Positions 3,555-62,460 of a stretch of DNA of 64,000 nt are shown in pieces (within the stretch, counting starts at the first letter, position 1; each line of letters opens with the position of its first letter). The notes beneath the pieces were generated by a model. It searched no databases, had not been told where the DNA came from, and worked only from the letters and a program-made list of their open reading frames with translations. The position numbers and the translations under genes were made by a program. Source of the stretch: Eledone cirrhosa (lineage: Eukaryota). Location of the stretch: positions 85,994,001 to 86,058,000 of the forward strand of contig OZ024742.1 of NCBI GenBank assembly GCA_964016885.1, read 5' to 3'.

Positions 3555-3708
3555 ATATAGTAACAAACACAGTAAACCGTGTGTCTAAAATTACAAGGGT
3601 TGTAAAACCACATATGCTTGAAATATTTAACCAAGAAACAGACAGAATGACAAAATGAAAATAAAAATATATTATCATAATAATACAAACCGCCTCAATA
3701 ACCATTAT

Positions 3709-3790
3709 ATCTCTCGGACAGATTATCCCTAATCTGTTTCGCCCTGAGTGTGTTTGTAACAGATAATCCTGGGCTTCATCAGCGAGAGAT
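3709..3790 (-). ncRNA. Type I hammerhead ribozyme (472-bp family)
   Basis: Reverse complement of the motif at 4180-4261, with intact core and stems. Confidence 0.88.
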
Positions 3791-4179
3791 TGCGATTAAA
3801 TGCCACAAACACTATTTGCCAACGTTCACACAGAAAGATGAATTTGTCACCTCGTGCTTCGCCAGTCAAACGTGGTAAGCGCGTATTGAACAGAAATAAC
3901 AGTCCAACACGCACAACTTAATAGCTCAACTTGTAAGGGAGCAGAAATATATATATGAGAACTAGAACCATGTAACCATTAAGCTCTAAGTATAAAGTAC
4001 AAATAAATACTGAGCCAATTAACAATATATAGTAAGAAACACAGTAAACCGTGTGTCTAAAATTACAAGGGTTGAAAAACCACATATGTTTGAAATATTT
4101 AACCAAGAAACAGACAGAATGACAAAATGAAAATAAAAATATATTATCATAATAATACAAACCGCCTCATTTAATCGCA

Positions 4180-4261
4180 ATCTCTCGCTGATGAAGCCCA
4201 GGATTATCTGTTACAAACACACTCAGGGCGAAACAGATTAGGGATAATCTGTCCGAGAGAT
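4180..4261 (+). ncRNA. Type I hammerhead ribozyme (472-bp family)
   Basis: atctctcg-CTGATGA-a-gccc...gggc-GAAA-cagatta(ggga)taatctg-TC-cgagagat: 8-bp stem I, stem II, 7-bp stem III, GUC cleavage triplet with predicted cut after 4253. Confidence 0.9.
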
Positions 4262-4651
4262 ATAATGGTTATTGAGGCGGTTTGTATTATTATGATAATA
4301 TATTTTTATTTTCATTTTGTCATTCTGTCTGTTTCTTGGTTAAATATTTCAAGCATATGTGGTTTTTCAACCCTTGTAATTTTAGACACACGGTTTACTG
4401 TGTTTCTTACTATATATTGTTAATCGGCTCAGTATTTATTTGTACTTTATACTTAGAGCTTAATGGTTACATGGTTCTAGTTCTCATATATATATTTCTG
4501 CTCCCTTACAAGTTGAGCTATTAAGTTGTGCGTGTTGGACTGTTATTTCTGTTCAATACGCGCTTGCCACGTTTGACTGGCGAAGCACGAGGTGATGAAT
4601 TCATCTTTCTGTGTAAACGTTGGCAAATAGTGTTTGTGGCATTTAATCGCA

Positions 4652-4733
4652 ATCTCTCGCTGATGAAGCGCAGGATTATCTGTTACAAACACACTCAGGG
4701 CGAAACAGGTTAGGGATAATCTGTCCGAGAGAT
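4652..4733 (+). ncRNA. Type I hammerhead ribozyme (472-bp family, variant copy)
   Basis: Same motif with a stem II mismatch (gcgc/gggc) and an A-U to G-U change in stem III. Confidence 0.8.
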
Positions 4734-4958
4734 ATAATGGTTATTGAGGCGGTTTGTATTATTATGATATTATATTTTTATTTTCATTTTGTCATTCTGT
4801 CTGTTTCTTGGTTAAATATTTCAAGCATATGTGGTTTTTCAACCCTTGTAAATTTAGACACACGGTTTACTGTGTTTCTTACTATATATTGTTAATCGGC
4901 TCAGTATTTATTTGTACTTTATACTTAGAGCTTAATGGTTACAGGTTTCTAATTCTCA

Positions 4959-4997
<39 letters not shown>

Positions 4998-7234: not shown

Positions 7235-7329
7235 GTAGAACACTGGAAGGTAATATCCGTTGTGGTAGAGCACTCAGTCCATGGGACGAGTTTGGTAGAA
7301 GTGGTTACACAACAGTTAGTTCAACATAC

Positions 7330-7366
7330 CGAGAACAATTGTTTCAACTTACGGATCCTCAGCTCG
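7330..7366 (-). ncRNA. Minimal PLE-type hammerhead ribozyme
   Basis: cgag-CTGAGGA-tccgtaagtt-GAAA-caattg-TT-ctcg. Palindromic stem III, weak stem II. Confidence 0.6.
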
Positions 7367-8090
7367 TAATGGACATGGTTATACGGAACAGGAAGGACAA
7401 CCGTACGAATGCGCATGCGCAGACACGATCACTTCACAAAGGCAATACTAAAATGCGTGCGAGATGTGTAAGGGTTGTTGGTGATGTATGCCTTCATGTT
7501 CTTAGCGCAGGTGTACCCTAGTTTTACTTTGTGTCGGGTAAAGATGGAGCGGTATTTATGACCTATTGGAAAGTGTCTATCTAATAGGGCTAGAATGTTT
7601 TGCCTTCATTGGTTTTAACGTTGAGTGAGAAGGGAGGAGAGAACCAGAGAGTTTGTCTATTATTACGCTTTCTTTTCTTATTGCTGTTGTTGAGAGTGGG
7701 AGAGTACGTGATAGTTTGCGAGAAGCCGCTATTAGCTAACGCCGTGTTATAGTAGGGTGCCGCCATGTGAAAGATAGTCGTGTAGACTATGTATTGATGA
7801 ACGAATAAATATTCTAAATAGATTATGCAATAGCGATTGCCTAAACACGAACAATTAATTCTTCACACGTTGTCCACACGTCTGGAATCACCTCTTACGT
7901 AACTACAGAGCTCCGGATTGAATTACAACAACATCCTAATTTTCTTATGAACTACCAATGTTTCGGACATTCGCAGTTATCTCCCTTACACCTCTCCCAC
8001 GCATTTTAGTATTGCCTGTGTGAAGTGATCGTTTCTGCGCATGCGCGTCCGTACGGTTGTGCTTGCTGATCCGTATAATCATGTCCATTA

Positions 8091-8128
8091 TGAGCTGAGG
8101 ATCCGCTAAGGTGAAACAATTGTTCTCA
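8091..8128 (+). ncRNA. Minimal PLE-type hammerhead ribozyme
   Basis: tgag-CTGAGGA-tccgctaaggt-GAAA-caattg-TT-ctca. Confidence 0.68.
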
Positions 8129-8157
8129 GTATGGTGAACTAACTGTTGTGTAACCAC

Positions 8158-8217
<60 letters not shown>

Positions 8218-9315: not shown

Positions 9316-10640
9316 CTATTACTCTATTACTCTTTTACCTGTTTCAACCATCTGGCTGAGGCCATGCTGGGGCACCGCCCTTGTTGCTACACATTTTACC
9401 TCCAGCCGGTAGTGGTTGGCCACTGGTGTAAGAGGGAGTTTGTTGCTGCTGCCCTTAGATTTCCCTCGTGTCTTGCTGTGGGCTCACCCGGGATCCTGGA
9501 TAACAAGGTGACGAGATGTTTCTTGAAGACATCCACCTCCACGTCATGCAAATCTCTCAGATCCCTCGGCACCTTGTTGAACAGTTGAGGGCCCTTGAAT
9601 CCTAGGCTATTGCAATACCTGCTCCTTATTCTAGATGTGGAAAACGGGACCTTTGGCACCACACAGTGACGTCCTGTTCGACGGTTGGTCCAGCTCCCAA
9701 TGCCAAAGTTTGGTGCTAGTCCCTCCAGGATTTTCCATATGTAGATCACTGCATATCTCTCCCGTCTTCGTTCCAAGGAGTAGAGGTTCAGTTCCTTTAG
9801 CCTCTCCCAGTAGCTTGTCTCCTTCATAGTGGCAATCCTCTTGGTGTAGTTTCGCTGGATTGCCTCACGCTCCGTGGTTAGTTTGACACTATGGGGTGAC
9901 CACAACTGGGAGCAGTAGTCCAGACGGCTTAGGACAAATGTCCTCCATAGTGTCAACATGGTGTCTCGATCTCTTGTCCGGAAAGTCCTCAAGATCCAGC
10001 CAGCAAGTCGTCTGCACATTGCCGCCACTTTAATGATGTGTGAAGATGCATCATCGCTCCTGTCTATGCCCAGGTCTCGTATCGATTTTGACACGGGGAT
10101 ATTGGTCCCTCCTTGTCCTGTGTAGTTGTGTTGTACTATATTTGTGTTTGCAGGTTTGTGTGGAGGTTTGTATTGTAGGGCGTGGAATTTGCCAGCATTA
10201 AACTGGATGTTGCTTTCTTCCGCCCATTTGTATATGGTATCCAGATCCTGCAGTAAAAGGGAAGCGTCAGCCGGGTTTTTAATTACCTGTGCTACCATAG
10301 TGTCATCAGCATAGCTAGTGAGGGATGCTGTTGTATGTACTACAGAGGGCATGTCTGAGAGAGCCACCAAAAACAGTAGTGGTCCCAGGACTGTCCCGTG
10401 GGGCACCCCACTTGTTATTGGTGTTTCCTTTGAGAGGGCCCCATTTTCTGCGACTGCCTGGCTTCTGTCCTTTAGGAAGTCATGCAAACACTCACCTACT
10501 TTTCCAAGTTATGCCGAGTCCGTGTAGTTTGTGACATATCATTCCGTGGTCGACCTTGTCAAGGGCCTTCGCAAAGTCAAGATATATCACGTCCACATGT
10601 GAGCTGTCTAGTAGTTGTTTCAGTACCCAGTACCCAGTAC
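9316..10640 (-). mobile_element. 5'-truncated CR1/L2-group LINE (RT and C-terminus; ORF 9396-10487 plus frameshifted 10492-10620)
   Basis: [58 protein letters not shown]. 3' UTR ends in a short repeat tail at ~9316-9340. Confidence 0.92.
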
Positions 10641-10719
10641 CCAGTATATATATATATATACACATATACACATATATATGTATAAATAAATACACAGATA
10701 CACACATTTAAGTATATAT

Positions 10720-10797
<78 letters not shown>

Positions 10798-10857
10798 GTA
10801 TATATATATATATATATATATGTATAAATGTATATATATATATATATATATATATAA

Positions 10858-10895
<38 letters not shown>

Positions 10896-10896
10896 G

Positions 10897-10927
<31 letters not shown>

Positions 10928-11104
10928 AAATGTATATATATAAATGTATATATGTATATATATATATATATATATTTACATATATTATATACATATATAT
11001 ATACATATAGATATATAGATATATATACATATATTATATACATGTATATATATATATATATATATACATGTATATATATTTATATATATATATACATGTA
11101 TATC

Positions 11105-11144
<40 letters not shown>

Positions 11145-11206
11145 TATCTATACATATATTATATACATATATATATATATGCATATATATATATATATAT
11201 ATATTC

Positions 11207-11238
<32 letters not shown>

Positions 11239-11417
11239 TTATATATATATATATGTATATATGTATATATATATATATGTATATATATTTATATATGAGT
11301 TGAAAAAAATGAAAACGAAAAACGAAATTTCATTTCTCACTCTTAGTATGGCACTTACTTAAATGTAAGTATGTATGTATACGTACATACATATATGTAT
11401 ACAGACGTACAGTAGCA

Positions 11418-11489
<72 letters not shown>

Positions 11490-11647
11490 CACACATGCAG
11501 GTACACATACATATATGCACGCATCAGTTTAGCAGACGCTTATTATAGCGCTTGCTTTGTTCGTTTGTCAACAAACTGAACGGCCTGAATTTATGCCATA
11601 CGGTGTTAAGGCAACCACGTCACCTTTTTGTTCAACACTGACACAGG

Positions 11648-11692
11648 AACGATGTACTAGTTTCAAGCTTGTTAGCTATCATCAGCAACGTT
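11648..11692 (-). ncRNA. Minimal type I hammerhead ribozyme (496-bp family)
   Basis: Minus strand: aacgttg-CTGATGA-tagct(aaca)agctt-GAAA-ctag-TA-catcgtt. Palindromic ctag stem/loop III, GUA triplet. Confidence 0.8.
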
Positions 11693-11933
11693 TACCCATC
11701 TGCCAGATAGTTGAACGTTCGAAAGTATATACTTTCCTTATGAAAATTAACGGCTGAGCAGCCTAATTTGCATATTGAGTGAGTTAAATCGGTCAGGCAT
11801 ACCGAAAACGATAAGTTGAAAAAAATGAAAACGAAAAACGAAATTTCATTTCTCACTCTTAGTATGGCACTTACTTAAATGTAAGTATGTATGTATACGT
11901 ACATACATATATGTATACAGACGTACAGTAGCA

Positions 11934-11985
<52 letters not shown>

Positions 11986-12143
11986 CACACATCCAGGTAC
12001 ACATACATATATGCACGCATCAGTTTAGCAGACGCTTATTATAGCGCTTGCTTTGTTCGTTTGTCAACAAACTGAACAGCCTGAATTTATGCCATACGGT
12101 GTTAAGGCAACCACGTCACCTTTTTGTTCAACACTGACACAGG

Positions 12144-12188
12144 AACGATGTACTAGTTTCAAGCTTGTTAGCTATCATCAGCACCGTT
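12144..12188 (-). ncRNA. Minimal type I hammerhead ribozyme (496-bp family)
   Basis: aacggtg-CTGATGA-tagct(aaca)agctt-GAAA-ctag-TA-catcgtt. 7-bp stem I including one G-U pair. Confidence 0.82.
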
Positions 12189-12429
12189 TACCCATCTGCC
12201 AGATAGTTGAACGTTCGAAAGTATATACTTTCCTTATGAAAATTAACGGCTGAGCAGCCTAATTTGCATATTGAGTGAGTTAAATCGGTCAGGCATACCG
12301 AAAACGATAAGTTGAAAAAAATGAAAACGAAAAACGAAATTTCATTTCTCACTCTTAGTATGGCACTTACTTAAATGTAAGTATGTATGTATACGTATAT
12401 ACATATATGTATACAGACGTACAGTAGCA

Positions 12430-12477
<48 letters not shown>

Positions 12478-12519
12478 CACACATGCAGGTACACATACAT
12501 ATATGCACGTATATATGCA

Positions 12520-15389
<2,870 letters not shown>

Positions 15390-15390: not shown

Positions 15391-17052
15391 TAGGAGGTGA
15401 GTTTTATTGTAGTACAATAAAGCAATGCAGATTACGGATAAGTAGCACTCTACAGTTTGTAGGACTGGAGTATACCGCACATAAAACCATCTTAGAGTTC
15501 AACAATTAATATTGGACCAGAGCTTATACCTCTAACAAATTTAACATCACAATGGGAGCATCCGATTCATCCCAATTGACAGATTTAATTGGTATCTTTA
15601 TTTTGAACTCTTTGAATCGGAAAATTCCTCAACTTCGCGGTGGAATTTATCGTGACGATGGACTCTTTACTATCTTAAATTGCAACATAGTTAACCTTAA
15701 TATTATGAAGAACAATATACGTAATCTCTTTAACCAACATAACTTAAACATTTAATTTGATAACAGCATCAAACTACCTAATTTCTTGGTTGATAACAGC
15801 ATCAAACTAGCTAATTTCTTGACATTGGCCTATATTGCCCTTACCATAAAAACAATGATAACCTAAATTATGTTAATTTTAAATCTAACCACCCCACTAA
15901 TATTAAGAATGCTATAGTTAGTTATATTGGAAAAAGAATATCCAACCGATCTTCTAATAAAAACATATTTGATGCTAACGCCAATTACTATAATAACGGA
16001 TTTCTAAAGTCGGTTATCCTTATAAAATCAAATATAGTAAAGAAACAAATTCTAGAAGATCTTACAGTAGAATAATTAATCATGATCATTCCAATAACTT
16101 TAATAAAAGACCTAGATACAAAAACATAATCTGGTATAATGCTTCTTTCTCCATCTCTATTAATAATATTATTCCTAAATTATTCTTTAGTGCCTTAAAT
16201 AAATGCTTCCCGCCCTCACATATCTATAGTAAAATATTTAACAAACACACTATAAAATGTTCCTATTCGTCCTCCTCCAAGATCTCCAACATTATCTCTA
16301 AACACAATAATAAAATACTAAATACTAAATCTCTTCCTACCAACACTGAATATCATAATAATAGTAATAGTACTCCCGACGTCATTGTTAACTCTAGGCT
16401 AATTTCTGCAAACCCAAATACGTCAAACGCAACTTCGTTAAATGTTCTTAATCCCATTCTAAATCAAGAAACTATTATTCCTATCTTAAATAACTTCTCC
16501 AATCCAATTCCTTCTATATATCACAAGGTCACTTGTTAACAACTCTGTTAATTTCTCTAATCGCAATTGTAATTGCCCTGTTAAAAATAAATGTCCTCTC
16601 AACAACCATTGTCTTGAAAAAACTTAATATACGAATGTAAAGTTATAACGCACCAAATCCTTTACCTATTTTGGCTCCACTTCCACCTCCTTTAAAGCTC
16701 GTCTTTATAATCATCATTCTTCTTTTAAATACCAACTTAAAAGAACCAACACGGCACTCTCAGAACTCATATGGTCCTTGAAAGACAAACATATTAACTA
16801 TAACATCTCTTGGAAGAAGGTTTGTTCTGCTTCTACATACTTGAATAGTTCTCTATCCAAGACATGCAATCTCTGTTTATGTGCAAAGTTTACCATTATA
16901 TCTGATTTAGATTCTATAATAAATAGACGCACTGACTTGTTTTCTCTCTGCTTGCATAAATTCCACAGAACATTCCATAAAGTATACAGCTAATATCTAA
17001 TACTTTACCAATTTACCAATTTAATATCTAATACTTTACCAATTCTCAAAGG

Positions 17053-17090
<38 letters not shown>

Positions 17091-18075
17091 TATTTCTTTA
17101 AAAATATACCCATCTTTCTACCTTATTTCAATGTTATTTATTATACATTATATAATACTAGTTACTTATTCTATATCACTCCTATTTTCACTTCCCTTTC
17201 TTTCTTTTTTCCTTTCTTCTTTTTTTCTTTTTCTTTTAATTTTTAACCTCTAATCTGTACCTTTTCTTCCTAGATACTTCGCAATTCTCATTATTACTCA
17301 GCACAATATATCCTTACTTCATAATATCACCTTAAAAAATCCTTCGTAAACATAAACATTTTTTTCACGTTAGATTATTCATCCTCATTTCATAATTTTT
17401 TTCTCCGTTTCATGCTCATCTAACTTATACATATTACACTTCTACTTCATTTCACAATATACCCTTAATTACATTACTATTGTTATATTTTTATATTTTT
17501 TAATAATACATATCAACAATTTCTTTCCATCGCACATATTATTAAACCCTTAAATATTATTCTTAATACATATTAACATTTTCTTTTCATCGCACATATT
17601 ATTAAACCCTTCAATATACACACCTTAATTTAACATTATTCTAAATGTTTTCTCTTCGTTAATTTTCAAATTCTTTTAATTTATATATTATCTTCCAACG
17701 GTTCTTTAACCTCTCTATGTAAAACAAAATATTTTTTCTCAGTTATAAAAGCTATCTCGCTCTCTCTCTGTCACCCATCTCTCATCCTATCTCATCCTTC
17801 CTCATTATACTCCCCCCTCCACTTTTTACTCTCATCTCCTCCTCTTTTTCATCACCCCCCCCCCTTAAATGTTTTTCCCAATATCACACATCAATCTAAA
17901 ACTGCTTTTCATATGTTGATTTAAAACTGCACTAGTCACAAGTGTTTTTTAACCTTCATATCATGTCTCCCTATTTTATCTGACGAAAATGCAAATGTTA
18001 TTGCATGATGATATTTGTTTTTGAAATGCGCATAATAAAATACATGGAACTCTTTTAAACATCTTTTGAACTTAT
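15390..18075 (+). mobile_element. 5'-truncated degenerate Penelope-like element (RT, linker, GIY-YIG, long 3' UTR with HHR)
   Basis: MGASDSSQLTDLIGIFIL...GGIYRDDGL (RT), CNCPVKNKCPLNNHCL, YFGSTSTSFKARLYNHHSSF, CNLCL...IINRRTDLFSLCLHK. 15390-15475 is an inverted piece of the family terminal repeat (compare 57380-57465). Confidence 0.9.
17972..18042 (+). ncRNA. PLE terminal-repeat hammerhead ribozyme
   Basis: tattttat-CTGACGA-aaatgcaaatgttatt...atgatatttgttttt-GAAA-tgcgca-TA-ataaaata. 8-bp stem I, palindromic stem III. Confidence 0.75.
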
Positions 18076-21930: not shown

Positions 21931-24900
21931 TTTGCATTTATCTTGCTTTATGTTCATACGAGTTATCACCAAATCACAACCAGTGACCTCAAGAGACAAC
22001 AAGGTCCGCCATGTTCAAGAAAGAACATACATATTCACACATGCATCCTTAGTGTTTAGACTTGTGGTGTACTTATATTGACAGGATCTTCCTTAGTATA
22101 TGGGCAGTTCCCATTAGTACTATCTTTTGTATTTCTCCTATAAGCGGGTTTCCTGAGATTTGCGATAAGTAGTCGTTAGACTCCTTAGGTATCATTCCCA
22201 GAGCGCCTACAACCGCTCGTATTGTTTTAGTTCTCAATTTCCACATTTTTCCAATTTCTATCTCCAGGTCCTTATACTTGCTCAATTTTTCAAATGTTTT
22301 TATAGATACATTCTTGTCTATTGGAACGGACATATCAATTAGCAGGCATACCCTCCTTTGAAAGTCCTTCAATATTATATCAGGTCTATTTGCATCTATT
22401 TTTCGGTCTGTTTGGATGCTAAAGTTCCACAAGATTGAGATGTGATCTTTTTCAAGTATGGGAGGTGGTTGATGCTCCCACCAATTCTTTTGATGGGGCA
22501 GGTCAAAATGCTTACACATTATCCAATGTATCTATTGTGCAGCTCTGTCATGCCTGTTTAGGTATTCGGTTGGAGCTATAGGACTGCACATTGAAATTAT
22601 ATGGTAAATGGTCTCTGGTTGTTTTTTGCATACACGGCATAATGGGCTGCACCCATTTTTTATTATGTTGGCTTGGTAATGTTTTGTTGGCAGACACTGA
22701 TCTTGTGCCGATATAATCAGTCCTTCAGTCTCCGATTTCAGTCCAGAGGATGCCAACCACTGATGGGTTAAAGTTTTGTCAACATCAGGATTGTTAGCTC
22801 GCTCTGGGTATTTTCCATACAGAGGCTTTTCTTGCCATTTCTTAGCCAGTTTCTGTAGCAGTTCTTTCTTTGCAGTTACTTTTACCTGCTTTGCTTTTTC
22901 TGTGTTTTCCATTTCAGCAGTAAATGGGACTTCTGAAATGTGTAGTCCATTACTGTATCTTTGTGCATCTTTTGTAATCGAATATGATCTTTTGGTGATT
23001 TCGTGTTTCAAAACGAGTTTGATCATCCAATCATGTGATTCCCTTAGATATGTGGATAATCCAATTGTTGCAGTTTTCAACGCAATGTCTAACTGGATTA
23101 ACCCACGTCCTCCTTCTTTCCAAGGGAGATATATTCTATCTATGTCTGCCTTAGGGTGATGCATTCTGTGCATGGTTAAGAATTTTCGGATTTTTGTATC
23201 GAGCCTACGGATCTCTGTGCTTGACCAGTTGATGACATTGTAACTGTAGGTTACTACTGGTTTGGCAAGCGTGTTTATGGCATCGATCCTATTCCTTGCA
23301 TTCAATTCCGTTCTTAAGATTGCTCTGACTCTGCGGTAACATTCCTTCCCTTCCTTATCCTTTCCCTCATTGTCGAGTGCTTGATTCCGTCTCCTTCACA
23401 AACACCTAGATATTTGTAAGTTTTTTCTTGATCAAGCTCTCTTATCACGTTCCCCCGATCAAGATTAATGTCTGAACTCTTCAGCAGCTTTCCTCTGGTG
23501 AACGTTGCTTTGGCGCATTTATCCAGTCGAAACTCCATTTTAATGTCATCACTGAACTGCTTCACAGTGGATATTAGCCCTTGCAATTGTTCATCATTTT
23601 TTGCAAATAGTTTCAGGTCATCCATGTAGAACAGGTGATTAATGGTTTTGTCATAGACTCTATATCCATGTTTTGTTTCATTGAGCATTTTCCTTAATGG
23701 TATAAGTGCGATGCAGAATAAAAGCGGTGATAAAGAGTCACCCTGAAAAATTCCACAATTAATATTAACTTCTCCTGCTTCCAGTGATTTTTGTTTCACT
23801 ATTCAAAAGGAGTGTCGTTCTCCATGTCTTCATACTGAATGAAAACGGGGGATATTTTTAAAATCTCTAAACATTTGTCAATCCAACTGTGTGGCAAAAT
23901 ATCGAATGCTTTTTTATAATCTATCCAAGCAATCGATAGATTTTTGTGTCTATTATGACAATCTTCCAGTATCATTTTGTTAACCAGAAGCTGATCCTTA
24001 CAGCCATATGAGCCTCGTTTACACCCTTTCTGCTCAATGGGAAATAGGTCATTTGTTATCAGGTGGTCATATGTGTATTCAGTTAGGACTGATGTTAAAA
24101 TGTTATACATTTTGGTCAAGCAGGTTATCGGTCTGTAATTTTGGGGATTGTTTGTCTCATCATTCTTCGGTAGCAGGAATGTAATGCCGTTAACTAGCCA
24201 TGATGGTATCTTTTCTGGCTCCTTAACTATTTCATTGTAAAGTTGGGCTAACAGCTCATGAGACTCTGTGAAGGCATTTATCCAAGTTTTGTATTTTGTA
24301 TTTTCCTGGGGATTTCCATTTGCTGGTTTTTCTTAGAGCCAAGCGCAACTGTTCAACTATTATATTTTCTCATGTTAGTTCTTCACGGTGAGCTGTATCT
24401 TTCATTTGTCTGTCTATCCATGGGGCATGTATGTTATGAACTTTTTCTTCGGCCCAGATCTTTTCCCAGAATTCTAGCACTTCCTCCTTGGGTAGTATTG
24501 ATTTAGCAGTTATTGTTGACTTACCAATTTTTCTGTAGAAGTTTCTTTGGTTGTTTTTGAACATATTATTGTCCTTATAGAATCTAGATCGTTTTTCAAA
24601 GCGCCTTATACGAGCAGCTTTGGCCGACACTTTTTGCTTGATTGTTTCTATCAGCATGTCTATGTCACATGTTGATCATATACTGTACTTTTTTTTCAAT
24701 TTTCTAAGTTTAGTTTGTTTAACATGTTCACCTACTTTATAGTTTGTTAAAATTTCTATGTCAGATCGGAGAAGGTTTATTTGGCGATTGATGTTATCTT
24801 GACAAGTAGATTTCTTGTGGGAATTCCTTTGTTTTTTCATCTTCACTCCACATAAGTGAGTGGTGACTTTAGCCGATGCATAATAGAGATGATTTAAGTC

Positions 24901-25900
24901 AGTAATGTTTAGTTTGTTTGTGATGATAATGTTTTTTGAGAATTATGTTAGTCTTGTGTATTATCTTTTGGTTCTGTTTGGAGTTCTGGATCTTAGGGAG
25001 GGTGTCTCGTTACCCCATGTCAGATTCTTTCATTTTCATCCATTCGATCATAATTTCATCCTTCAAGTTGGTAAGTTCATTCTCATTCATTTCTTTATCA
25101 TTTACGATCTCATTATTTTCATTTGGAGTTTCATCCTGAGCATGCACTCCCTCCACTTTTTCGCTCCTTTCTGTAATTTGTTCTGTTGCCAGTGATTCCG
25201 CCTCAACCCTGGGATTCGAAGTGTTACAGTTTACCTCGTTTTCACTGACACATGCTTCATTTTCCCTTCGCTGACTTTGTGCTACTAGCTTGATCTGATC
25301 AATTTCTATATCAGTTAGTAACTTTTTTCTTACAATATTTCTTCGTATATTGGCTAGTTTGTTACTGTCAATATAGCCTCTGTTTTCGGGATGTTTCTTT
25401 TTCCAGTTGATATATGTTTGTTCTGTATTCGATGTATTTGATGGGTAGTACATGGCAGTGTAGAAAGCCTCAAGGACTTCTTTATTATCTTTCCTTGACC
25501 ATTTTTCTCTCTTTTTCTTTGGATTTCTTGGTGGTGAGCATGGAGGGCCAACAGTAGGAGTATTCCGGTTATCGGAGGTCTCCAGCTCCGAAGTGATGGG
25601 AAGGTTTGAACCATTAGCTGATTTTTCGACCCCAGTCTGGTTCCTCTCTGAGGGACGCGGCCCTTTTTTACCCGGGTGACGGCCGATCCGGTATGAGATT
25701 TTATCATTAGACATTTACTTTATTTTGTCGCGTTTTATCCTTATCCGCCAAAGGGCAATCATTTCGTGTTACCACTTCTAGAACGAGTGTCAACCAAGAC
25801 TAGAGGGGTCGTTCTCCCCTAGAGACATGGCTATTCCCCGCCGGCCGCCATCCCGGTATTTCTTGGTCACGGGGTTTTCTTTTTTGTTGCTTTTTATTAA
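21931..25900 (-). mobile_element. Full-length but frameshifted R4/Dong-like non-LTR retrotransposon (RT plus restriction-like endonuclease), family 1
   Basis: ORF pieces from 25714 to 22073: [35 protein letters not shown]...ETIYHIISMC, RHD, RPDIIL, IDMSVP, KLSKY. Flanked on both sides by (TAA)n. Confidence 0.93.
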
Positions 25901-25909
25901 ATTGTTAAA

Positions 25910-25949
<40 letters not shown>

Positions 25950-25964
25950 TATTATTATTATTTT

Positions 25965-27992
25965 TTTATGAGTCTCAGTCATTGACGTTAGTTAACTGGA
26001 AAGTTTGTTGAAATGGATATCAAGCCACTACCTGCAGCCTCAGATATTCAAGACGTATCGGAGGGTTCTTGCTGTTCCCAGCAAGCATGCCTTTTGGAGC
26101 GTTCCAAAAAGCGTGAAGGGGCCACTTTTCTTTAACCATCCCTGGAAACTTTTTGAGATTATGCCTAGTGCGCCTATGACAATCGGGATCACTTTGACTT
26201 CATGGCAGTTCCAAATCCTTTTTACCTCCCACTTTAAGTCCTGGTATCGATTAATTTTCTTCCACTCCTTCTCTTGCACTCTCGTGTCGAATGGGCAGGC
26301 CACATCCACAATCAGGCACGATCTTGTTTTCTTTGTCCAAAACCACCAGGTCAGGTCTATTGTGTTCCAGTTTCTTGTCCGTCTGTATCCTAAAATCCCA
26401 CAGCACCTTCACCTGATCGTTTTCTATCACCGCCTCTGGCTTATGCTCATACCACTTCTCAGAATGTGGTAAATTGTTTACTTTGCATAGGTGCTAGTGG
26501 ATCACCCTGCCCATCACATCATGTCTCCAGCCCTTATAGTGAGTCTGGGCTAGGTGTTTACACTCGGATACAATGTGAGCCACAGTCTCCTCTCTCTCTC
26601 CACAGATCCTGCACAGAGGGCTAGCCTCCTCCTTGTAAATGTGGTGTTTCAACCACTTCGTTTTGAGGGCCTGCTCCTGCGCAGCCATTATCATTCCTTC
26701 TGTAGCCTTTTTAAGGTCTCCTCTTTTCAACCAGTTCCATGTCTGTGGATCTCTAAATTCAGTTTTCTCAAAGAAGGTAATATGAAGGTATTTTTCCTGA
26801 AGGCTGCTCTTTCTCCTTGATGTTATTTCCCCCTTGGAAATCCCCTGGCCTATTGTCCCCTCTTTCACTACAGTTCTGAGCATTGGCTCCTTACTATCAG
26901 TCACGTATTTGTGTAGGTTGTTTTTCACCATCTGAACACAGTCCTCTATGCTGATAAGACCTCTTCCACCTTCAGATCTCCTTAAGTAGAGTCTATCGAC
27001 ATCACTCCTCTTGTGGAACATGTTGTAGATAGTCAATAGCTTCCTAGTCTTCCTATCCATTTCTTTTTGTTCAGCAACATTCCATCTCAGAATTCCCGCA
27101 CTGTACCAAATAATAGACACAGCTCGGCAATTTACTGCACTTATGGCATTCCTACTATTCAGATGTGACTTTAATACGCTCCTTACACTCCGAAGGTATT
27201 CAGTTCTTATCAATTCCTTTAGTTTTTTGTTCTTGATGTCATCAGCCTCCAGAACACCCAAATACTTGTATCCTTCCCCAGAGTCAATTTCCTTTATTAT
27301 CTCACCTGTTGGTATCTGGATTCCATTACTTCTGCTCAACTTACCCCTCCTCATCACAATGACTCCACACTTACTAATACCAAATTGCATACATATCATT
27401 GCTGAAAATACGGACAGTGTCAACAAGCACATCCAACTCCTTCTCACTCTTCCCGAAGAGCTTAAGATCGTCCATAAAGAGGTGGTGATTGATGGTAAGC
27501 CCTCCCTTTCCCAACCTGTATCCTGCTCTCACTTTTCGCAGTACACTGGTCAGGGGCATAAGGGCAAGGACAAACAAGAGAGGGTACAGACTATCTCCCT
27601 GGAAGATACCTCTCTTGATCTTCACGCTTCCCAAGGATTCTCCAGTTGATGTTAACTCTGTTTCCCAGGACTTCATACTTTTGCCCAACAACTGTCTGAT
27701 GTTATCTGCCACCTTGAAGATCTCCAGGCTTTTGGTGATCTAAGAATGAGGCACCATGTCAAATGCCTTTTTGTAGTCTATCCATCCCATGGCAAGACCA
27801 GTGTGTCTCCTCTTGCAATTCCTCATTACCATTTTATCAATAAGTAACTGGTCCTTTGTACCACGTGACTTCTTCCGGCATCCTTTCTGTTCATCCGGTA
27901 ACAAGTTGTTTGTGTGGAGGTGATGGTAGATTTCCTCAGACATAATGCTTGTCAACAGTTTCAACATTACGGACAGACATGTGATAGGTCTA
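25965..27992 (-). mobile_element. 5'-truncated R4/Dong-like LINE, family 2
   Basis: [73 protein letters not shown]. 3' end abuts (TAA)n and 5' break abuts (GAA)n. Confidence 0.92.
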
Positions 27993-29150: not shown

Positions 29151-29287
29151 AGTGTAACTTTCTACACAAAACGAAGGTTATAGAGAAAATTGAGGTTGGT
29201 AATGGCACATGGAATATATAAGAGACAGAATACTTTTTTGTGAAAAAACATATAATTTTATAAGGTAAGGAAATAATAAAGGGTATA

Positions 29288-29337
29288 AAAAATGATCGGT
29301 TTCGATGGGTCTGCAAAAGCCATCTTTTCAAATGTTG
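29288..29337 (-). ncRNA. Hammerhead-like motif, U3-A8 core variant
   Basis: Minus strand: caacat-TTGAAAA-gatgg...ccatc-GAAA-ccga-TC-attttt. Confidence 0.5.
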
Positions 29338-29692
29338 ATTAATATTAAGAAAAATTAATAATAAGAAGAGTTAAAATTTGAGATTTGAAAATTCAAGTAT
29401 AAAATTCATTGTGGGATTTCATAGTAGTCTTCATCTTGGTAGAAGCAAGTTGACTGCTGTGTGCCTTTCTGGTAGTGAATGAGAAGTTATTTGGGGGTGT
29501 GGGTTATTTTATAAAGGTCAGATTTAGCAATGGCCAGATGACCAGCTGCTGGTCAGTGAGGGGGTGGAAGCAATATACATACATATATCTCCCTGTGGTC
29601 GGTAGGAGAGGGGTGAGTGATAAAAAGGGATTTAGTGCACTTACACCTATATATACACATATACCTTCATCCACACATACATACATATACAT

Positions 29693-29725
<33 letters not shown>

Positions 29726-29782
29726 CGTGGGAAAGTAAAACAATCGGAGAATAGACCGTTAAAACATATTTATTTAAAATAT

Positions 29783-29823
29783 CACCTACGTACGTTTCGC
29801 CCAGTTGGGCTTCTCAAGGGCAT
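29783..29823 (-). ncRNA. Minimal hammerhead-like motif, U3-A8 core variant, 3' of a PLE endonuclease
   Basis: Minus strand: atgccc-TTGAGAA-gccc(aact)gggc-GAAA-cgtacg-TA-ggtg. Good stem II and palindromic stem III, short stem I. Confidence 0.6.
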
Positions 29824-30112
29824 AAATAATCACAAGTGTTCCTTATATAGTTCGGAAAGAGTTTTGGGGGTTAAATCTACATCAAGATTCATTGCTCGCA
29901 AAAATATCTTGTTTTGATTTTGCAGCAGGTCAAGGAAGGTAACTCTGGCCGGTGTTAGGGCAGTCTTTCCCGGATAATTTTTTTTTTTTTTTTGCCGCAT
30001 CCGTTTGTCTGAGGCTGGGTCTGGTATGCTAGGATTGTTTTATGGGTGTTATTTTGCTGCGCCTGCCCGCCGTGGTGTTAATACTTGTTGCAGGGAGATC
30101 CAGTGTACTATT

Positions 30113-30571
30113 TCACTCTTCATTCTTAACCCATCTAAAGAAGGATATTTTTAAGCGATGTGTACAACTTATCGCTGTTTCAGCTCTGCAGTTGATGAGC
30201 TCGTGGGGTGCAGTTATGATATGGTAGAGCTCCATGCGGCAAAGATTGCATTTCCTCTTGAAGTTGTACGGTGCAGCCCTGCCGACAATCGCCCAGTGCG
30301 TGGAGAAGCTGATGTTTAAGTCCTTTAGTGATGTGATGTAGTCCGCGAGCGAAGTGGAGTGCCTTAGTTTTATATTTGTGAAAGAGTGGAGATGTGTTCG
30401 AAACCTAATTTTGAACGGGCCGGAGGTGGCCCCTATATAATGTTTAACGCTATTGTGGCTAGTAATAGTGCATCTATATATAACCCTATCAGTCAAGCAG
30501 TATCCTCTAAGGGGGCAGCGTCCTCTGTCGCGGCAGTTGCAATTTCTGTCGCGGTTCCGTCTATTTCCCAC
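30113..30571 (-). pseudogene. Penelope-like GIY-YIG endonuclease domain (open over 152 aa, 5'-truncated element)
   Basis: CNCRDRGRCPLRGYCL, VIYRC, YIGATSGPFKIRFRTHLHSF, STSLADY, CNLCRME, LINCRAE...CTHR. Confidence 0.92.
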
Positions 30572-30758
30572 GGTAAGGCTATCATTGTTGCTGCATACGT
30601 TGTTACAACGCTCTGCTAACTCTCTAGCCCACTAAATATTAACACTTCGAATATTAATACTGCCGGCACTAGTATCGAGCAGCTTTGGCATACGCTACTT
30701 GGCAAATAACTATATGTATCACCTATCCCTCCTTTTTCTCTCTTTCTCGATACGTAAA

Positions 30759-30823
<65 letters not shown>

Positions 30824-31023
30824 CACACACACATACACACACACATATATACACATACACACATATATATATACACACACACACACATATATATATACAT
30901 ACACATACATCCAGATACACACATACATACACACATATATATATATGTGTGTGTATGTGTATATGTGTGTGTGTGTATGTGTGTATGTATATGTATGTGT
31001 GTGTGTATGTATGTGTGTATATG

Positions 31024-31062
<39 letters not shown>

Positions 31063-31417
31063 ATGTATATGTATGTATGTGTGGATGTATGTATGTGTGT
31101 ATATATAGGTGTAAGTGCACTAAATCCCTTTCTATCACTCTCCCCTCTCCTACCGACCACAGGGAGATATATGTATGTATGTTGCTTCCACCCCCTCACC
31201 TACCAGCAGCTGGCCATCTGGCCATTGCTAAATCTGACCTTTATAAAATAACCCACACCCCCAAATAACATCTCATTCACTACCAGAAAGGCACACAGCA
31301 GTCAACTTGCTGCTACCAGGATGAAAACTACTATGAAATCCCACAATGAATTTTATACTTGAATTTTCAAATCTCAAATTTTAACTCTTCTTATTATTAA
31401 TTTTTCTTAATATTAAT

Positions 31418-31467
31418 CAACATTTGAAAAGGTGGCTTTTGCAAACCCATCGAAACCGGTCATTTTG
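31418..31467 (+). ncRNA. Hammerhead-like motif, U3-A8 core variant
   Basis: caacat-TTGAAAA-ggtgg...ccatc-GAAA-ccgg-TC-attttg. Palindromic ccgg, GUC triplet. Confidence 0.58.
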
Positions 31468-31613
31468 TATACCCTTTATTATTTCCTTACCTTATAAAAT
31501 TATGTTTTTTCACAAAAAAGTATTCTGTCTCTTATATATTCCATGGGCCATTACCAACCTCAATTTTCTATATATATATATATATATATATACATGTTTG
31601 TGTGTGTGTGTGT

Positions 31614-41600: not shown

Positions 41601-41800
41601 CGTCGATCCCGGCGCGCAAAGCTTATAGAGTTCGGATTAGCGAATTAGTTAAGCGTGCGTTGACTGGTGCGATCGTCAACGACAGGTGGTGGTTTACCCT
41701 TTAAAGGCCTATTAGAGTAGAATCGATAAGGTTTAACAAAGGAGTATTGATTGACGAAAATAGAGTAGAGGGAGAGCTAGTTAGAAAGCTAGAGGAGGCC
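38642..41800 (+). mobile_element. Degenerate Tx1/L1-like LINE copy A (ORF1 and AP endonuclease, 3' part lost)
   Basis: Colinear with copy B at 44976-48260 (e.g. RVERAMEAQIRKA, ITRGKKYAKVDV, and the endonuclease start at ~40862). Begins immediately after (ATT)n. Confidence 0.85.
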
Positions 41801-42545: not shown

Positions 42546-42680
42546 CCCCTTATATGATGTTTATCAATTTAATATGTACGTAGCACATACACACACACAC
42601 ATATATGTATATATATTCATAAACATTATATAAAATTGGAAAGGTAAATAGCTATATATATTTCCCGCAGAATTGAAACA

Positions 42681-42925
42681 CTATCTATCTATCTAAGGCG
42701 GGTAACATTCCCGAGATCCATGGACGAATTCTCTCCAGCGGTCTCTGTCCCTCATTATCGCTGCCATGTCCTGCGTCTCCAACAGACCAGTGTCTGTCCT
42801 TAGGGTATCAACATAGGTTAACCTTGGTCTTCCTCTTCTAGTGTGTACATGTAGGGGCTTCCACAGGAGCACTGAGTGCAACGTCAACTCTGGATGTCGG
42901 TGAGCACGTCCAGCCAACCTCAATT
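42681..42925 (-). mobile_element. 3' fragment of an RTE-group LINE
   Basis: LRLAGRAHRHPE...VLLWKP...RRGRPRLTYVDTL...MRDRDRWR, followed by an (ATAG)n tail. Confidence 0.8.
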
Positions 42926-43494: not shown

Positions 43495-43531
43495 CTAGTA
43501 GAAAGTCGCCCTCCGCATGGTTTTCTGCTAG

Positions 43532-44929: not shown

Positions 44930-44976
<47 letters not shown>

Positions 44977-47271: not shown

Positions 47272-47306
47272 GTGGTCTTTCCCATCTTTTCCACTCTATT
47301 TTAAAC

Positions 47307-58865: not shown

Positions 58866-59291
58866 TTATATATATATATATATATATACTTCTTCATATA
58901 ATTTGTAATACATTGCGATATGGTAGAGTCAACATTTGGCTGAATTAGCTACTTTTTCTAGTAGCACGTAGCCTCTAGTTAGTCAATTGTCACGTGATAT
59001 GTCTTCCATTTGAAATTTCCACTGACAGCGAACGTCGAGGAATTGTTGTCTCGGATTTTCTATCTGGACTTAGAAGGTAACCTGTTGATTTGAAATTTCT
59101 GGCGATGCTCTATTCAGATAATCGTTATTTTCTCAACGAAAACTGCAGTAGGAACATTAAAGAAAGTAAGTAAATATATTTTTCTCATGATGTTTGTTTT
59201 TCCAATATATGGTTTTATATATATTTATATATATATATGTAAGTATGTATATATACGTACATACATATATGTATACAGACGTACAGTAGCA

Positions 59292-59353
<62 letters not shown>

Positions 59354-59540
59354 TATACATACATATACACATATACACATATGCATACAGGTACACATAC
59401 ATATATGCACGCATCAGCTTAGCCGACGTTTATTATAACGCAGCTTTGTTCGCTTGTTTGTCAACAAACCGAACAGCCTGAATTTATGCCATACGGTGTT
59501 AAGGCAACCACGTCACCTTTTTGTTCAACACTGACACAGG

Positions 59541-59585
59541 AACGATGGACTAGTTTCAAGCTTGTTAGCTATCATCAGCACTGTT
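59541..59585 (-). ncRNA. Minimal type I hammerhead ribozyme (496-bp family, GUC triplet)
   Basis: aacagtg-CTGATGA-tagct(aaca)agctt-GAAA-ctag-TC-catcgtt. Confidence 0.78.
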
Positions 59586-59819
59586 TACCCATCTGCCAGA
59601 TAGTTGAACGTTCGAAAATATATACTTTCCTTATGAAAATTAACGGCTGAGCAGCCTAATTTGCATATTGAGTGAGTTAAATCGGTCAGGCATACCGAAA
59701 ACGACAAGTTGAAAAAAAATGAAAACGAAATTTCATTTCTCACTCTTAGTATGGCATTACTTAAATATAAGTATGTATGTATACGTACATACATATATGT
59801 ATACAGACGTACAGTAGCA

Positions 59820-59913
<94 letters not shown>

Positions 59914-60100
59914 TATACATACATATACACATATACACATATGCATACATGTATACATACATATATGCACGCATCAGCTTAGCCGACGTTTATTATAACG
60001 CAGCTTTGTTCGCTTGTTTGTCAACAAACCGAACAGCCTGAATTTATGCCATACGGTGTTAAGGCAACCACGTCACCTTTTTGTTCAACACTGACACAGG

Positions 60101-60145
60101 AACAATGTACTAGTTTCAAGCTTGTTAGCTATCATCAGCACCGTT
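60101..60145 (-). ncRNA. Minimal type I hammerhead ribozyme (496-bp family)
   Basis: aacggtg-CTGATGA...GAAA-ctag-TA-cattgtt. Stem I is kept through G-U pairs. Confidence 0.78.
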
Positions 60146-60599
60146 TACCCATCTGCCAGATAGTTGAACGTTCGAAAGTATATACTTTCCTTATGAAAAT
60201 TAACGGCTGAGCAGCCTAATTTGCATATTGAGTGAGTTAAATCGGTCAGGCATACCGAAAATGACAAGTTGAAAAAAAGAAAAAAAATGAAAACGAAATT
60301 TCATTTCTCACTCTTAGTATGGCACTTACTTAAATGTAAGTATGTATGTATACGTACATACATATATGTATACAGACGTACAGTAGCATGCATATATATA
60401 TATATACATATATATACATACATATACACATATACACATATGCATACAGGTACACATACATATATGCACGCATCAGCTTAGCCGACGTTTATTATAACGC
60501 AGCTTTGTTCGCTTGTTTGTCAACAAACCGAACAGCCTGAATTTATGCCATACGGTGTTAAGGCAACCACGTCACCTTTTTGTTCAACACTGACACAGT

Positions 60600-60644
60600 A
60601 ACGATGTACTAGTTTCAAGCTTGTTAGCTATCATCAGCAACGTT
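60600..60644 (-). ncRNA. Minimal type I hammerhead ribozyme (496-bp family)
   Basis: Identical motif to 11648-11692. Confidence 0.78.
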
Positions 60645-61035
60645 TACCCATCTGCCAGATAGTTGAACGTTCGAAAGTATATACTTTCCTTATGAAAGTT
60701 ATAATAAACGTCGGCTAAGCTGATGCGTGCATATATGTATGTGTACCTGTATGCATATGTGTATATGTGTATATGTATGTATATATATGTATATATATAT
60801 ATATGCATGCTACTGTACGTCTGTATACATATATGTATGTACGTATACATACATACTTACATTTAAGTAAGTGCCATACTAAGAGTGAGAAATGAAATTT
60901 CGTTTTCATTTTTTTTCAACTTGTCGTTTTCGGTATGCCTGACCGATTTAACTCACTCAATATGCAAATTAGGCTGCTCAGCCGTTAATTTTCATAAGGA
61001 AAGTATATACTTTCGAACGTTCAACTATCTGGCAG

Positions 61036-62460
61036 TTGATAGTTGAACGTTGAATTTAAGAATAGATGGTATAATCACCGCCATACCTTTAATAGAAAAA
61101 ATAGCACGGCGCTTTCTGAATTAGTCTGGAAGCTTAAACAACATAATATAGAGCACTCCTCATCTTGGTCCATAGTTTGCTCAGCCCAGCCATATTACGG
61201 CAGTGCGGGAGTTTGTAATGTATGTATTGCTGAAACATTTAATATAATTAGAGGCTGCCCCCTACTAATCAATAGGAGAGCGGACCTTTTCAACACTTGC
61301 CAGCATAGAACCTCGAAAATCTTCCTCATGATTTTTAGAAAGTAACCTACCACTAACTCCACCCTTTTTACCATAGCGATAGAGTTCTCTCAATTAGCAA
61401 AAATAGACAATCACACACTCAGGTTGTAGACAGCTAAGATCGTTTGCGCACTTACACACTGTACTCGGCATGTTTCCACAGAATTCTCACAACTGAGTGC
61501 ACATTTAACATTATTTTAGAATAATTTGTTAGTAAATAGTTATAACAACTACACACTCAGTTAAGACCGATTATGCGCATTCACCATTACATTAGCATAC
61601 CCTAACCATAGAGTTATCTCAGTTAGTAAATAGTTAGACGTATTACACACTCAGTTAAGAACGATTACGCTCTTTATACATAATTCTACACACAGTACCC
61701 GGTTTCTTTAGACATGGAGCCCCCTGTTGGCCTACATGGCGGGTGCTTGCACGCTCAGACTCGGGGTCTCAGATACTCAGCTGGACAACGGCACATACAG
61801 AGTTCGATACGAGCTGACTACTTGCTCTACACAGGGATGTGTATATACCAAAACATACACTATTTAGACGATACTGATGTTACAATTCAATCGTTACACG
61901 TATAGCAGAACGTTGAATGGAATTTACTTGCGTGTGTATAGGGTTGTGGTTGATCCAAATTTTCTCAATTACATCGGATAAACTGTGATTTGACCAATAT
62001 AACATTTGTTGTTTTATAACCTAAATTTCGATGCATACTGTGTTGCTGTATATATTTTTTTTCTCTCACATCACATCGGTCTGTGTGAGTGTGTGTGTAC
62101 TCATTCACACTAATTGTGACCGGCCGAAATTCTACAGATTTGATGGTGAGATTAGACCTGTCCAGCGTCTTGTACAGCTATTGAGAGACAGAGACTTGAT
62201 AGATTTATGACCCTGACTGAAGACGATAGCAGTTGGCGTGTTTTGGCTTCTGAATCTTCATATGGGGAACAACACTCTAGTGAGTGAACATCGTTAGATT
62301 TTACGCCCTCATCTCAAAGATTTGAAGTAATTTCATTATTCACCTGATGAGATCAGTGATAATCGATCATGACCACACGATCGATCTATCTCTTATTGAA
62401 ACATGTGTCGTAATTAAAATGATTGGAAATGTATACCATGCCTTCGGATCTTTATTTTGA
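61036..62460 (+). mobile_element. 5'-truncated Penelope-like element (GIY-YIG 3' half plus long 3' UTR)
   Basis: FKNRWYNHRHTF...STALSELVWKLK...WSIV..AQPY...CNVCIAE...LINRRADLFNTCQHR (61043-61345). 3' boundary approximate. Confidence 0.82.
62342..62411 (+). ncRNA. Hammerhead-like motif at the PLE 3' end
   Basis: ac-CTGATGA-gat...cgatc...gatcg...-GAAA-catgtg-TC-gt. Core intact, stem I very short. Confidence 0.45.

What the first reader, a model, noticed from the sequence alone, without database searches (positions are those of the whole stretch)
11297..12520. ~496-bp tandem repeat with minimal, dimer-type hammerheads and an internal (TA)n
Seen: each complete unit carries on the minus strand CUGAUGA, a 4-bp stem II, GAAA, palindromic CUAG and a GUA or GUC site. 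Across five copies in two loci 47 kb apart the variation is confined to stem I (largely pairing-tolerant) and the H position of the triplet, which stays cleavable. Established: minimal type I HHRs with palindromic loop III are typical of PLEs and can cleave as dimers. Inference: the tandem arrangement supplies the partner ribozyme in cis and yields ~500-nt monomers that carry their own microsatellite. This is a second retrozyme-like family.
Basis: partly seen in the sequence, partly recalled or inferred. Interest (0 to 1): 0.74.

Follow-up and report, generated by a model that had tools for sequence, protein, structure and literature searches.

The report
Two-armed hammerhead retrozyme using Penelope machinery
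This is one copy of an abundant, protein-free ~500-base repeat that carries a predicted self-cutting hammerhead RNA; its back-to-back insertions end at two fixed points, one on each arm, just like those of the genome's Penelope jumping genes, which likely copy it, possibly from an RNA circle.

Summary
Observation largely confirmed. There are five type I hammerheads in two loci, against none in 200 shuffles. Corrections: the ribozyme is canonical, not PLE-minimal, with U·U at the base of stem II. The five-copy variation is mostly decay: only 1 of 5 stem changes keeps a pair. Real covariation appears between a young and an older subfamily. The 3-Gb genome holds at least 24,041 exact cores.

None of 79 sampled insertions was a terminal repeat of a full ORF. 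Insertions sit in (TA)n as 1–13 tandem units, often as two outward-facing arms. Their 3′ ends fall at two sites about 65 nt apart, and 49 of 50 classifiable arm pairs have one of each. Two intact Penelope-like families here follow the same rule, and four retrozyme/PLE chimeras keep it.

Best reading: a non-LTR retrozyme, likely copied in trans by a PLE RT-endonuclease from both cut strands, probably from a circle. Cleavage, expression, circles and the donor PLE are untested. It is a new member of a known kind. This scan earlier noted the same twin-arm footprint in other hammerhead families of this genome.

The parts
11295..12512 (-). Locus 1: single-arm array of 2.45 units (516 bp, 496 bp, truncated third), 3' end at the 'long' site
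11643..11699 (-). Type I hammerhead, downstream copy (U.U in stem I pair 3); predicted cut between 11655 and 11654
   Evidence: cut site from established HHR numbering
12139..12195 (-). Type I hammerhead, upstream copy (majority sequence); predicted cut between 12151 and 12150
11655..12150 (-). Predicted 496-nt cut-to-cut monomer, 34% GC, 70% paired as a circle
   Evidence: prediction
11895..12020 (-). Long RNA hairpin: 24-bp arms at 11997-12020 and 11895-11918, with the internal (TA)n (11937-11985) at its tip; G.U-type asymmetry favours the hammerhead strand
11379..11524 (-). Same hairpin and (TA)n (11421-11489) in the downstream unit
11869..11886 (-). Small hairpin whose loop holds the 'short' insertion end (unit position 428-431), an inferred RT start site
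11811..11876 (-). About 65-nt 'tail' between the short and long ends; the long end (unit position 494-496) is the second inferred RT start site
10645..11296 (.). (TA)n-rich target microsatellite at the 3' end of locus 1
12513..15389 (.). (TA)/(TG)-rich microsatellite on the 5' side of locus 1
59234..60701 (-). Locus 2 main arm: about 2.8 units, three hammerheads (59536-59592, 60096-60152, 60595-60651), 3' end at the 'short' site
60700..61038 (+). Locus 2 inverted, outward-facing arm (unit positions 264-496, then 1-114)
61055..61330 (+). C-terminal fragment of a Penelope-like GIY-YIG endonuclease frame, joined to the inverted arm through a short inverted piece

Best explanation
The array is one insertion of an abundant, non-coding, tandem hammerhead repeat (a non-LTR retrozyme) that is likely copied into (TA)n microsatellites by the reverse transcriptase-endonuclease of a Penelope-like element acting in trans, probably from a circular RNA.

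Steps:
1. Inferred: arrays with two or more same-strand units are transcribed.
2. Inferred from anatomy and from axolotl precedent: neighbouring hammerheads pair through the 6-nt palindrome and cut out a monomer of about 425-570 nt. A lone hammerhead cannot close helix III, so a re-ligated monomer circle would be stable.
3. Shown as a footprint: insertion is into (TA)n, with 3' ends at two fixed sites about 65 nt apart that are not the ribozyme cut site.
4. Shown as a footprint, mechanism inferred: both cut strands are extended, one from the upstream site and one from the downstream site, usually on the same or a same-source RNA. The two cDNAs are then joined head to head, giving two outward-facing arms of which only one has the tail.
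5. Inferred: copying round the circle gives multi-unit arms; later slippage and conversion add variation.
For: Copy number: 10,739 + 13,302 exact hammerhead cores genome-wide, reversed-pattern control 0. No ORF in the unit.

Ends: 112 of 123 3' ends in the young sample fall at the two sites and run into TA repeats. Of 44 outward-facing pairs, 35 are long+short, none long+long or short+short, and 9 could not be classified. Older subfamily: 14 of 17 long+short, 1 short+short, 2 unclassified. Together 49 of 50, p about 1e-13 against a coin toss.

Controls: an intact PLE (3531-bp unit, 784-aa frame, full-length tandems) shows long+short in 15 of 17 chosen loci. A second PLE (821-aa frame) shows it in 6 of 6 loci with both ends readable. 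Four chimeric insertions with one retrozyme end and one PLE end also give one long and one short: L038, L061, L044 and L047, the last two with a direct mid-arm junction.

Template: opposite arms differ by 1.9%, against 4.9% between insertions. L084 has 13 tandem units with one substitution. Only 1 of 68 arm 5' ends lies within unit positions 150-164, around the cut site, so cut linear monomers are not the main template.

RNA structure under selection: stem I pair 3 is G.U or U.G and a distal pair A-U or U.G between subfamilies. 94.6% of cells are paired, against 33-49% for slid controls. 24 of 24 hairpin pairs are kept on the hammerhead strand in both subfamilies, with 3-5 mismatches on the other strand.

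Literature: the two RT start sites equal the tail (PMC11167929); the tail is often on one end only, with a (TA)n bias (PMC8557442); retrozymes derive from PLEs (10.64898/2026.07.22.740005).
Against: No transcript, circle or cleavage was observed.

No PLE with a homologous terminal repeat was found: BLAST of both subfamilies against the two intact PLEs gave nothing under E 0.3, so the donor is unnamed.

Chimeras also occur with several other repeat families, including a LINE-like 3' end in L035, L055 and L058. Adjacency can therefore arise without a shared enzyme, for example by deletion.

Some arrays are not uniform. L053 shows variants shared between non-adjacent units; L089 and L090 are mosaic; L088 and L090 have period-3 patterns. 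Post-insertion conversion or duplication therefore occurs and could inflate arm-to-arm identity. The own arm was closest or tied in only 19 of 34 pairs.

The covariation rests on 2-3 events between related subfamilies: 3 pairs changed on both sides, and 146 of 500 shuffles reach that number. Loci were partly chosen by an exact core match, which lowers apparent core variation.

In vitro, PLE-type hammerheads cut weakly, cleavage was not needed for PAc insertion (PMC11167929), and 8 of 9 Xenopus dimers did not cut (bioRxiv 2026).
Confidence: 0.62

Rival explanations
1. Same PLE-driven, two-start insertion, but the template is an uncut linear multimeric read-through transcript; the hammerhead is weak or not needed and no circle is involved.
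For: RT starts internally, so every unit of a multimer offers both start sites. Unprocessed RNA was the main PAc substrate (PMC11167929). The lack of 5' ends at the cut site fits this as well as a circle. Mosaic arrays fit heterogeneous multimers.
Against: 5' truncation would shorten arrays each generation, yet young arrays reach 13 near-identical units (L084) and both arms can be multimeric (L007, L089). Unit order in one arm is not repeated in the other (L089). The hammerhead fold is kept across subfamilies.
Confidence: 0.22
2. Units insert singly or in short runs, and long arrays grow afterwards by unequal crossover and gene conversion, as in satellite DNA.
For: Period-2 and period-3 patterns and shared private variants in L034, L053, L086, L088 and L090. 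Li et al. 2026 favour local amplification.
Against: The arrays keep precise PLE-type ends on both sides. The youngest long arrays are almost invariant. The autonomous PLE also occurs as 3.5-kb full-length tandems with the same ends.
Confidence: 0.08
3. The unit is simply the pseudo-LTR of an autonomous PLE that was not sampled, and the arrays are its truncated insertions.
For: Identical insertion syntax. PLE frames are directly joined to the unit in L044, L047 and window locus 2.
Against: Those three joints lie at different unit positions and in the middle of ORFs, in two PLE families. No recurring upstream sequence at arm 5' ends in 79 young insertions. None of 30 further older-subfamily stretches showed the unit framing a full ORF. 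The PLE families seen have their own unrelated termini. The HHR is canonical, not minimal.
Confidence: 0.06

Closest known systems
Metazoan non-LTR retrozymes (coral, mussel, axolotl Rtz331/Rtz353; Cervera and de la Pena 2020, PMC7229834; passages and sections 14, 15, 17 read)
   Same: Short non-coding tandem units with canonical type I HHR, low GC, thousands of dispersed copies, and a self-paired predicted circle. Helix III resembles HHR_Amex1 (one pair plus a palindromic tetraloop; active as a dimer). The U.U at the base of helix II resembles HHR_Amex2.
   Different: Larger monomer (about 425-570 nt against 170-400). It has a variable (TA)n at the tip of a long hairpin. Insertion ends are mapped here; that paper has no occurrence of 'target site' or 'microsatellite'. 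Expression and circles are not shown here.
Animal retrozymes as non-autonomous PLE derivatives (Li, Clavereau, Pollet, bioRxiv 10.64898/2026.07.22.740005; parts 1-3 of 5 read, supplements closed)
   Same: Same class and same proposed PLE link; their consensus lengths (51-972 bp) include this unit.
   Different: Their evidence is co-occurrence and pLTR homology in Xenopus. Here no homologous pLTR was found, and the link rests on insertion ends and chimeras.
EN+ Penelope-like elements and their 'tail' (Frangieh 2024, PMC11167929, parts 1-2 of 4; Craig 2021, PMC8557442, passages; Arkhipova 2013, PMC3846280, passages)
   Same: Two RT start sites bracketing a tail, the first in a stem-loop; tail on one end only; inverted 5'-truncated copy; tandems; AT-rich or (TA)n targets. 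Non-autonomous Chlamys elements with multicopy insertions are mentioned in PMC8557442.
   Different: No ORF. Tail of 58-66 nt against 30-40. Canonical rather than minimal HHR. In vitro the start sites did not differ between strands in bulk, whereas here each insertion uses one of each.

Membership tests
Non-LTR retrozyme | Tandem units of a few hundred bp, each with a type I hammerhead | tested here: met
   1-13 units per arm; 22 of 53 unbiased C1 stretches hold 2 or more same-strand hammerheads; 265 of 288 motifs found by outside anchors have an intact core
Non-LTR retrozyme | Canonical type I architecture (helix I 6 bp, helix II 4 bp, short palindromic helix III) | tested here: met
   helix II closes on U.U; Rfam score is below the gathering threshold
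Non-LTR retrozyme | No protein coding, GC under 45% | tested here: met
   six-frame translation; 34% GC
Non-LTR retrozyme | Dispersed, multi-locus family | tested here: met
Non-LTR retrozyme | Highly self-paired monomer circle | tested here: inconclusive
   67-71% paired; the sense strand is 27-44 kcal/mol more stable than the antisense in 4 of 4 units; prediction only, partly driven by the microsatellite hairpin
Non-LTR retrozyme | Self-cleavage of the transcript | not testable with these tools
   needs an in vitro assay
Non-LTR retrozyme | Accumulation as linear and circular RNA | not testable with these tools
   no RNA data could be examined
Autonomous PLE pseudo-LTR | Repeats flank an RT + GIY-YIG ORF at a fixed junction | tested here: not met
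   no fixed junction in 79 young insertions or in 30 further older-subfamily stretches
Autonomous PLE pseudo-LTR | Minimal HHR (long helix II, G10.1-C11.1, extra nucleotide, short helix I) | tested here: not met
   against the definition in PMC4209133
PLE-type insertion footprint | Two fixed 3' ends (tail), present on one end only | tested here: met
   PLE controls
PLE-type insertion footprint | Inverted 5'-truncated copy and AT-rich or microsatellite target | tested here: met
PLE-derived non-autonomous element | Sequence homology to the terminal repeat of a resident PLE | tested here: inconclusive
   no homology to two intact families or to the 3' regions of 23 PLE fragments, apart from the chimera L044 and weak microsatellite-like or 22-bp matches; other families were not surveyed

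The most novel reading that the evidence does not exclude
The Penelope RT-endonuclease works as an asymmetric pair. In every integration one subunit starts at the upstream site and the other at the downstream site, each on its own cut strand. Both run round one ribozyme-made RNA circle, or occasionally use two different RNAs. The tail is then the direct record of two-strand integration, and this retrozyme is a natural minimal trans-substrate that defines the cis signal.
Probability: 0.4. Interest if true: 0.72.

Novelty: new member of a known kind. Interest (0 to 1): 0.5.

Why it matters
Who mobilises animal retrozymes, and how PLEs make their tandem and inverted insertions with a one-sided tail, are stated open questions (PMC7229834, PMC8557442, PMC11167929). 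This family gives a quantitative footprint: 49 of 50 arm pairs are long+short, matched by two intact PLEs in the same genome and by retrozyme/PLE chimeras. It also offers a small RNA plus intact candidate enzymes for a direct in vitro test. The element class itself is known, and this scan has seen the footprint in sister families.

Tried and rejected
Expression and sequencing runs
- No RNA holder was listed, so there is no evidence either way on expression.
- Contigs of four runs of unknown kind were laid on the unit. X1 shows common variants at N7, loop II and stem I but none in the invariant core. It may be the same organism and is not used as support. X5 gave nothing.

Rfam and Pfam
- The whole-window Rfam scan was swamped by microsatellite-driven miRNA hits; there was no hammerhead among the 150 of 239 rows shown.
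- Pfam found nothing for 6 of 7 translated frames and a weak RVT_1 for one. PLE identity therefore rests on motifs (recalled: RT DD motif, GIY-YIG-like, CCHH) and on mutual tblastn.

Folding
- The circular-fold z-score of -12 was discarded, because shuffling destroys the TA runs. The repeat-free 290 nt gave z -3.9.
- Equilibrium folding gave about zero probability for pairing between the two palindromes and a shifted register for half of stem I. The model cannot score a double hammerhead, so this is no test.

Mechanism checks
- Search for a parent PLE by homology: negative.
- Mapping the breakpoints of the foreign-subfamily unit in L090 to the cut site: no markers, no power.
- The apparent shortage of 5' ends near the hammerhead (7 in positions 130-189) was set aside as sampling bias.
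- Shared hairpins at PLE and retrozyme ends (a lead from e1-8809842): clear in both retrozyme subfamilies, unclear in the two PLEs.
- The one short+short pair (L119) has the same foreign sequence beyond both ends and is probably a secondary inversion, but it is counted as an exception.
- Target-site duplications cannot be read in (TA)n.

Other
- One search gave empty output from a bad BLAST setting and was repeated.
- The sequence look-up of earlier findings returned nothing.

Full report
1. Observation. The array is real. It spans 11295-12512 on the minus strand, with units of 516 and 496 bp that differ in (TA)n length, plus a truncated third. A second locus at 59234-61038 has three more hammerheads and an inverted arm. 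A stem I + core + stem II descriptor finds these five and none in 200 shuffles. The fold is a canonical type I hammerhead: 6-bp helix I, internal loop, 5 distal pairs, helix II on a U.U mismatch, and a 6-nt palindrome for helix III. PMC4209133 (parts 1-2 of 4 read) defines the PLE minimal motif otherwise. Rfam gives HH9 at 17.7 bits only. The five window copies differ from the majority by six changes, and only one of the five stem changes keeps a pair. They therefore show decay, not selection.

2. Family. The window lies in a 3.0-Gb animal genome; a note of this scan calls it a mollusc, which I did not test. The exact 30-nt core occurs 10,739 times, and that of an older, ~424-bp subfamily 13,302 times, with 0 for reversed patterns. 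I fetched 53 stretches covering the first 100 hits on C1, 7 stretches of long arrays, 30 best DNA matches (14 kept as distinct insertions), 30 loci of the older subfamily by DNA match and 30 more by pattern. Across 72 of 80 distinct hammerhead sequences (those of equal length), 94.6% of cells pair, against 33-49% for slid structures. Stem I pair 3 switches between G.U and U.G, and a distal pair between A-U and U.G. This is only 2-3 events, and the count of covarying pairs is not above shuffles (146 of 500). The internal (TA)n (15-159 nt region, n=175) is the tip of a hairpin. Its 24-bp arms pair fully on the hammerhead strand in both subfamilies but carry 3-5 mismatches on the other strand, which argues for selection on the sense RNA.

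3. Insertion anatomy. Of 123 3' ends in the young sample, 60 lie at unit position 494-496 and 52 at about 428-431, each followed by TA repeats; 11 were otherwise. Neither site is the ribozyme cut (position 156). Many insertions have two outward-facing arms. Of 44 such pairs, 35 are long+short, none long+long or short+short, and 9 unclassified. Of 17 older pairs, 14 are long+short, 1 short+short and 2 unclassified. Opposite arms differ by 1.9% (147 unit pairs), units in one arm by 1.4% (380) and different insertions by 4.9% (2794). The own arm was closest or tied in 19 of 34 cases, mean percentile 0.08. Arm 5' ends are scattered, with 1 of 68 in positions 150-164. L084 has 13 units with one substitution. 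L053, L088, L089 and L090 show periodic or mosaic patterns, so conversion or duplication also acts after insertion.

4. The PLE link. Two young intact PLE families were found by protein search. In loci that I chose for having opposite-strand neighbours or full frames, they end in the same way: 15 of 17 long+short with an 80-nt tail, and 6 of 6 readable with an 83-nt tail. One forms full-length 3.5-kb tandems. Neither is homologous to the unit. No insertion was a pLTR pair around a full ORF. Direct joints to PLE coding sequence occur in L044, L047 and window locus 2, each at a different place. In four chimeras where the PLE end type is known, there is again one long and one short end (L038, L061, L044, L047). 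This is suggestive only (1 in 16 by chance). Deletion between neighbouring insertions could give the same picture, and chimeras with other families, including a LINE-like one, exist.

5. Mechanism. Frangieh et al. (PMC11167929, parts 1-2 of 4) showed that a PLE protein nicks and extends both strands of AT-rich DNA and starts RT at two internal sites that bracket the tail, and they predicted a dimer. Craig et al. (PMC8557442, passages) note that the tail is often on one end only and that (TA)n is a preferred target. The footprint here fits this. I infer that each cut strand uses a different start site on the same or a same-source RNA, and that the cDNAs are joined head to head. A circle best explains long uniform arms, their renewal despite 5' truncation, and the absence of run-off at the cut site. 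An uncut linear multimer is the main rival. Dimer-dependent cleavage is inferred from the palindrome and from axolotl HHR_Amex1 and HHR_Amex2 (PMC7229834, section 15). Cleavage may be weak: 8 of 9 Xenopus dimers did not cut (10.64898/2026.07.22.740005, parts 1-3 of 5; its supplements were closed and could list similar families, though it sampled no mollusc). Cleavage, transcription, circles and the donor are all untested.

6. Novelty. By every testable feature this is a non-LTR retrozyme, a class already described in molluscs (mussel; PMC7229834, section 14) and already tied to PLEs. Six literature searches (listings and abstract starts only, beyond the six papers read in part) showed no paper on this family or on insertion ends of retrozymes. 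The library lacks most subscription papers. Other agents of this scan reported the same twin-arm, one-tail footprint for a 310-bp family and for a 500-base family that may or may not be this one. I saw these notes after my own end counts; they are not independent support.

7. Verdict. Observation partly confirmed, interpretation partly supported. New member of a known kind, interest 0.5. The value lies in the strict one-long-one-short rule, the PLE controls and the chimeras, which make the PLE and retrozyme integration mechanism directly testable.

Noticed in passing
window 3559-4961: A separate 472-bp hammerhead repeat (long stem II) with two outward-facing arms in (TA)n; the right arm runs about 70 nt further than the left, the same one-tail pattern.
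   Followed up: partly
L151/L152 (G000:C1:437.20-437.21 Mb): Young autonomous PLE in four full-length 3531-bp tandem copies, each with an open 784-aa frame; many identical copies genome-wide.
   Followed up: partly
L174 (G000:C5:28.06-28.07 Mb): Second young PLE family with an 821-aa frame, an Asn-rich insert before the endonuclease, and its own hammerhead-like motif with a palindromic helix III; an older relative lies at window 15627-18067.
   Followed up: partly
L090 5734-6201: One whole unit of a different subfamily sits in register inside an array that otherwise shows a period-3 pattern; template switch or ectopic conversion.
   Followed up: partly
L031 4401-4671; L052, L059, L075: The unit's internal (TA)n is split by expansions or later insertions; in L031 it holds a small palindromic PLE end, so the element carries a target for further insertions.
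   Followed up: no
L035, L055, L058: Retrozyme arms joined back to back with the 3' end of a LINE-like element with a (CAT)n tail; may mean that different enzymes can extend the two ends of one break.
   Followed up: no
window 11688 and 60640: The same stem I change (U.U) occurs in both window loci although they belong to different sub-lineages; it is also seen in L113 and L186.
   Followed up: partly
window 7298-8160, 29185-31568, 55522-55550, 56870-57365: Further PLE fragments and hammerhead-like motifs with inverted arms.
   Followed up: no
window 9399-10508, 22076-27739, 39458-50945: Fragments of several LINE-type retrotransposons (RT and AP-endonuclease-like frames).
   Followed up: no
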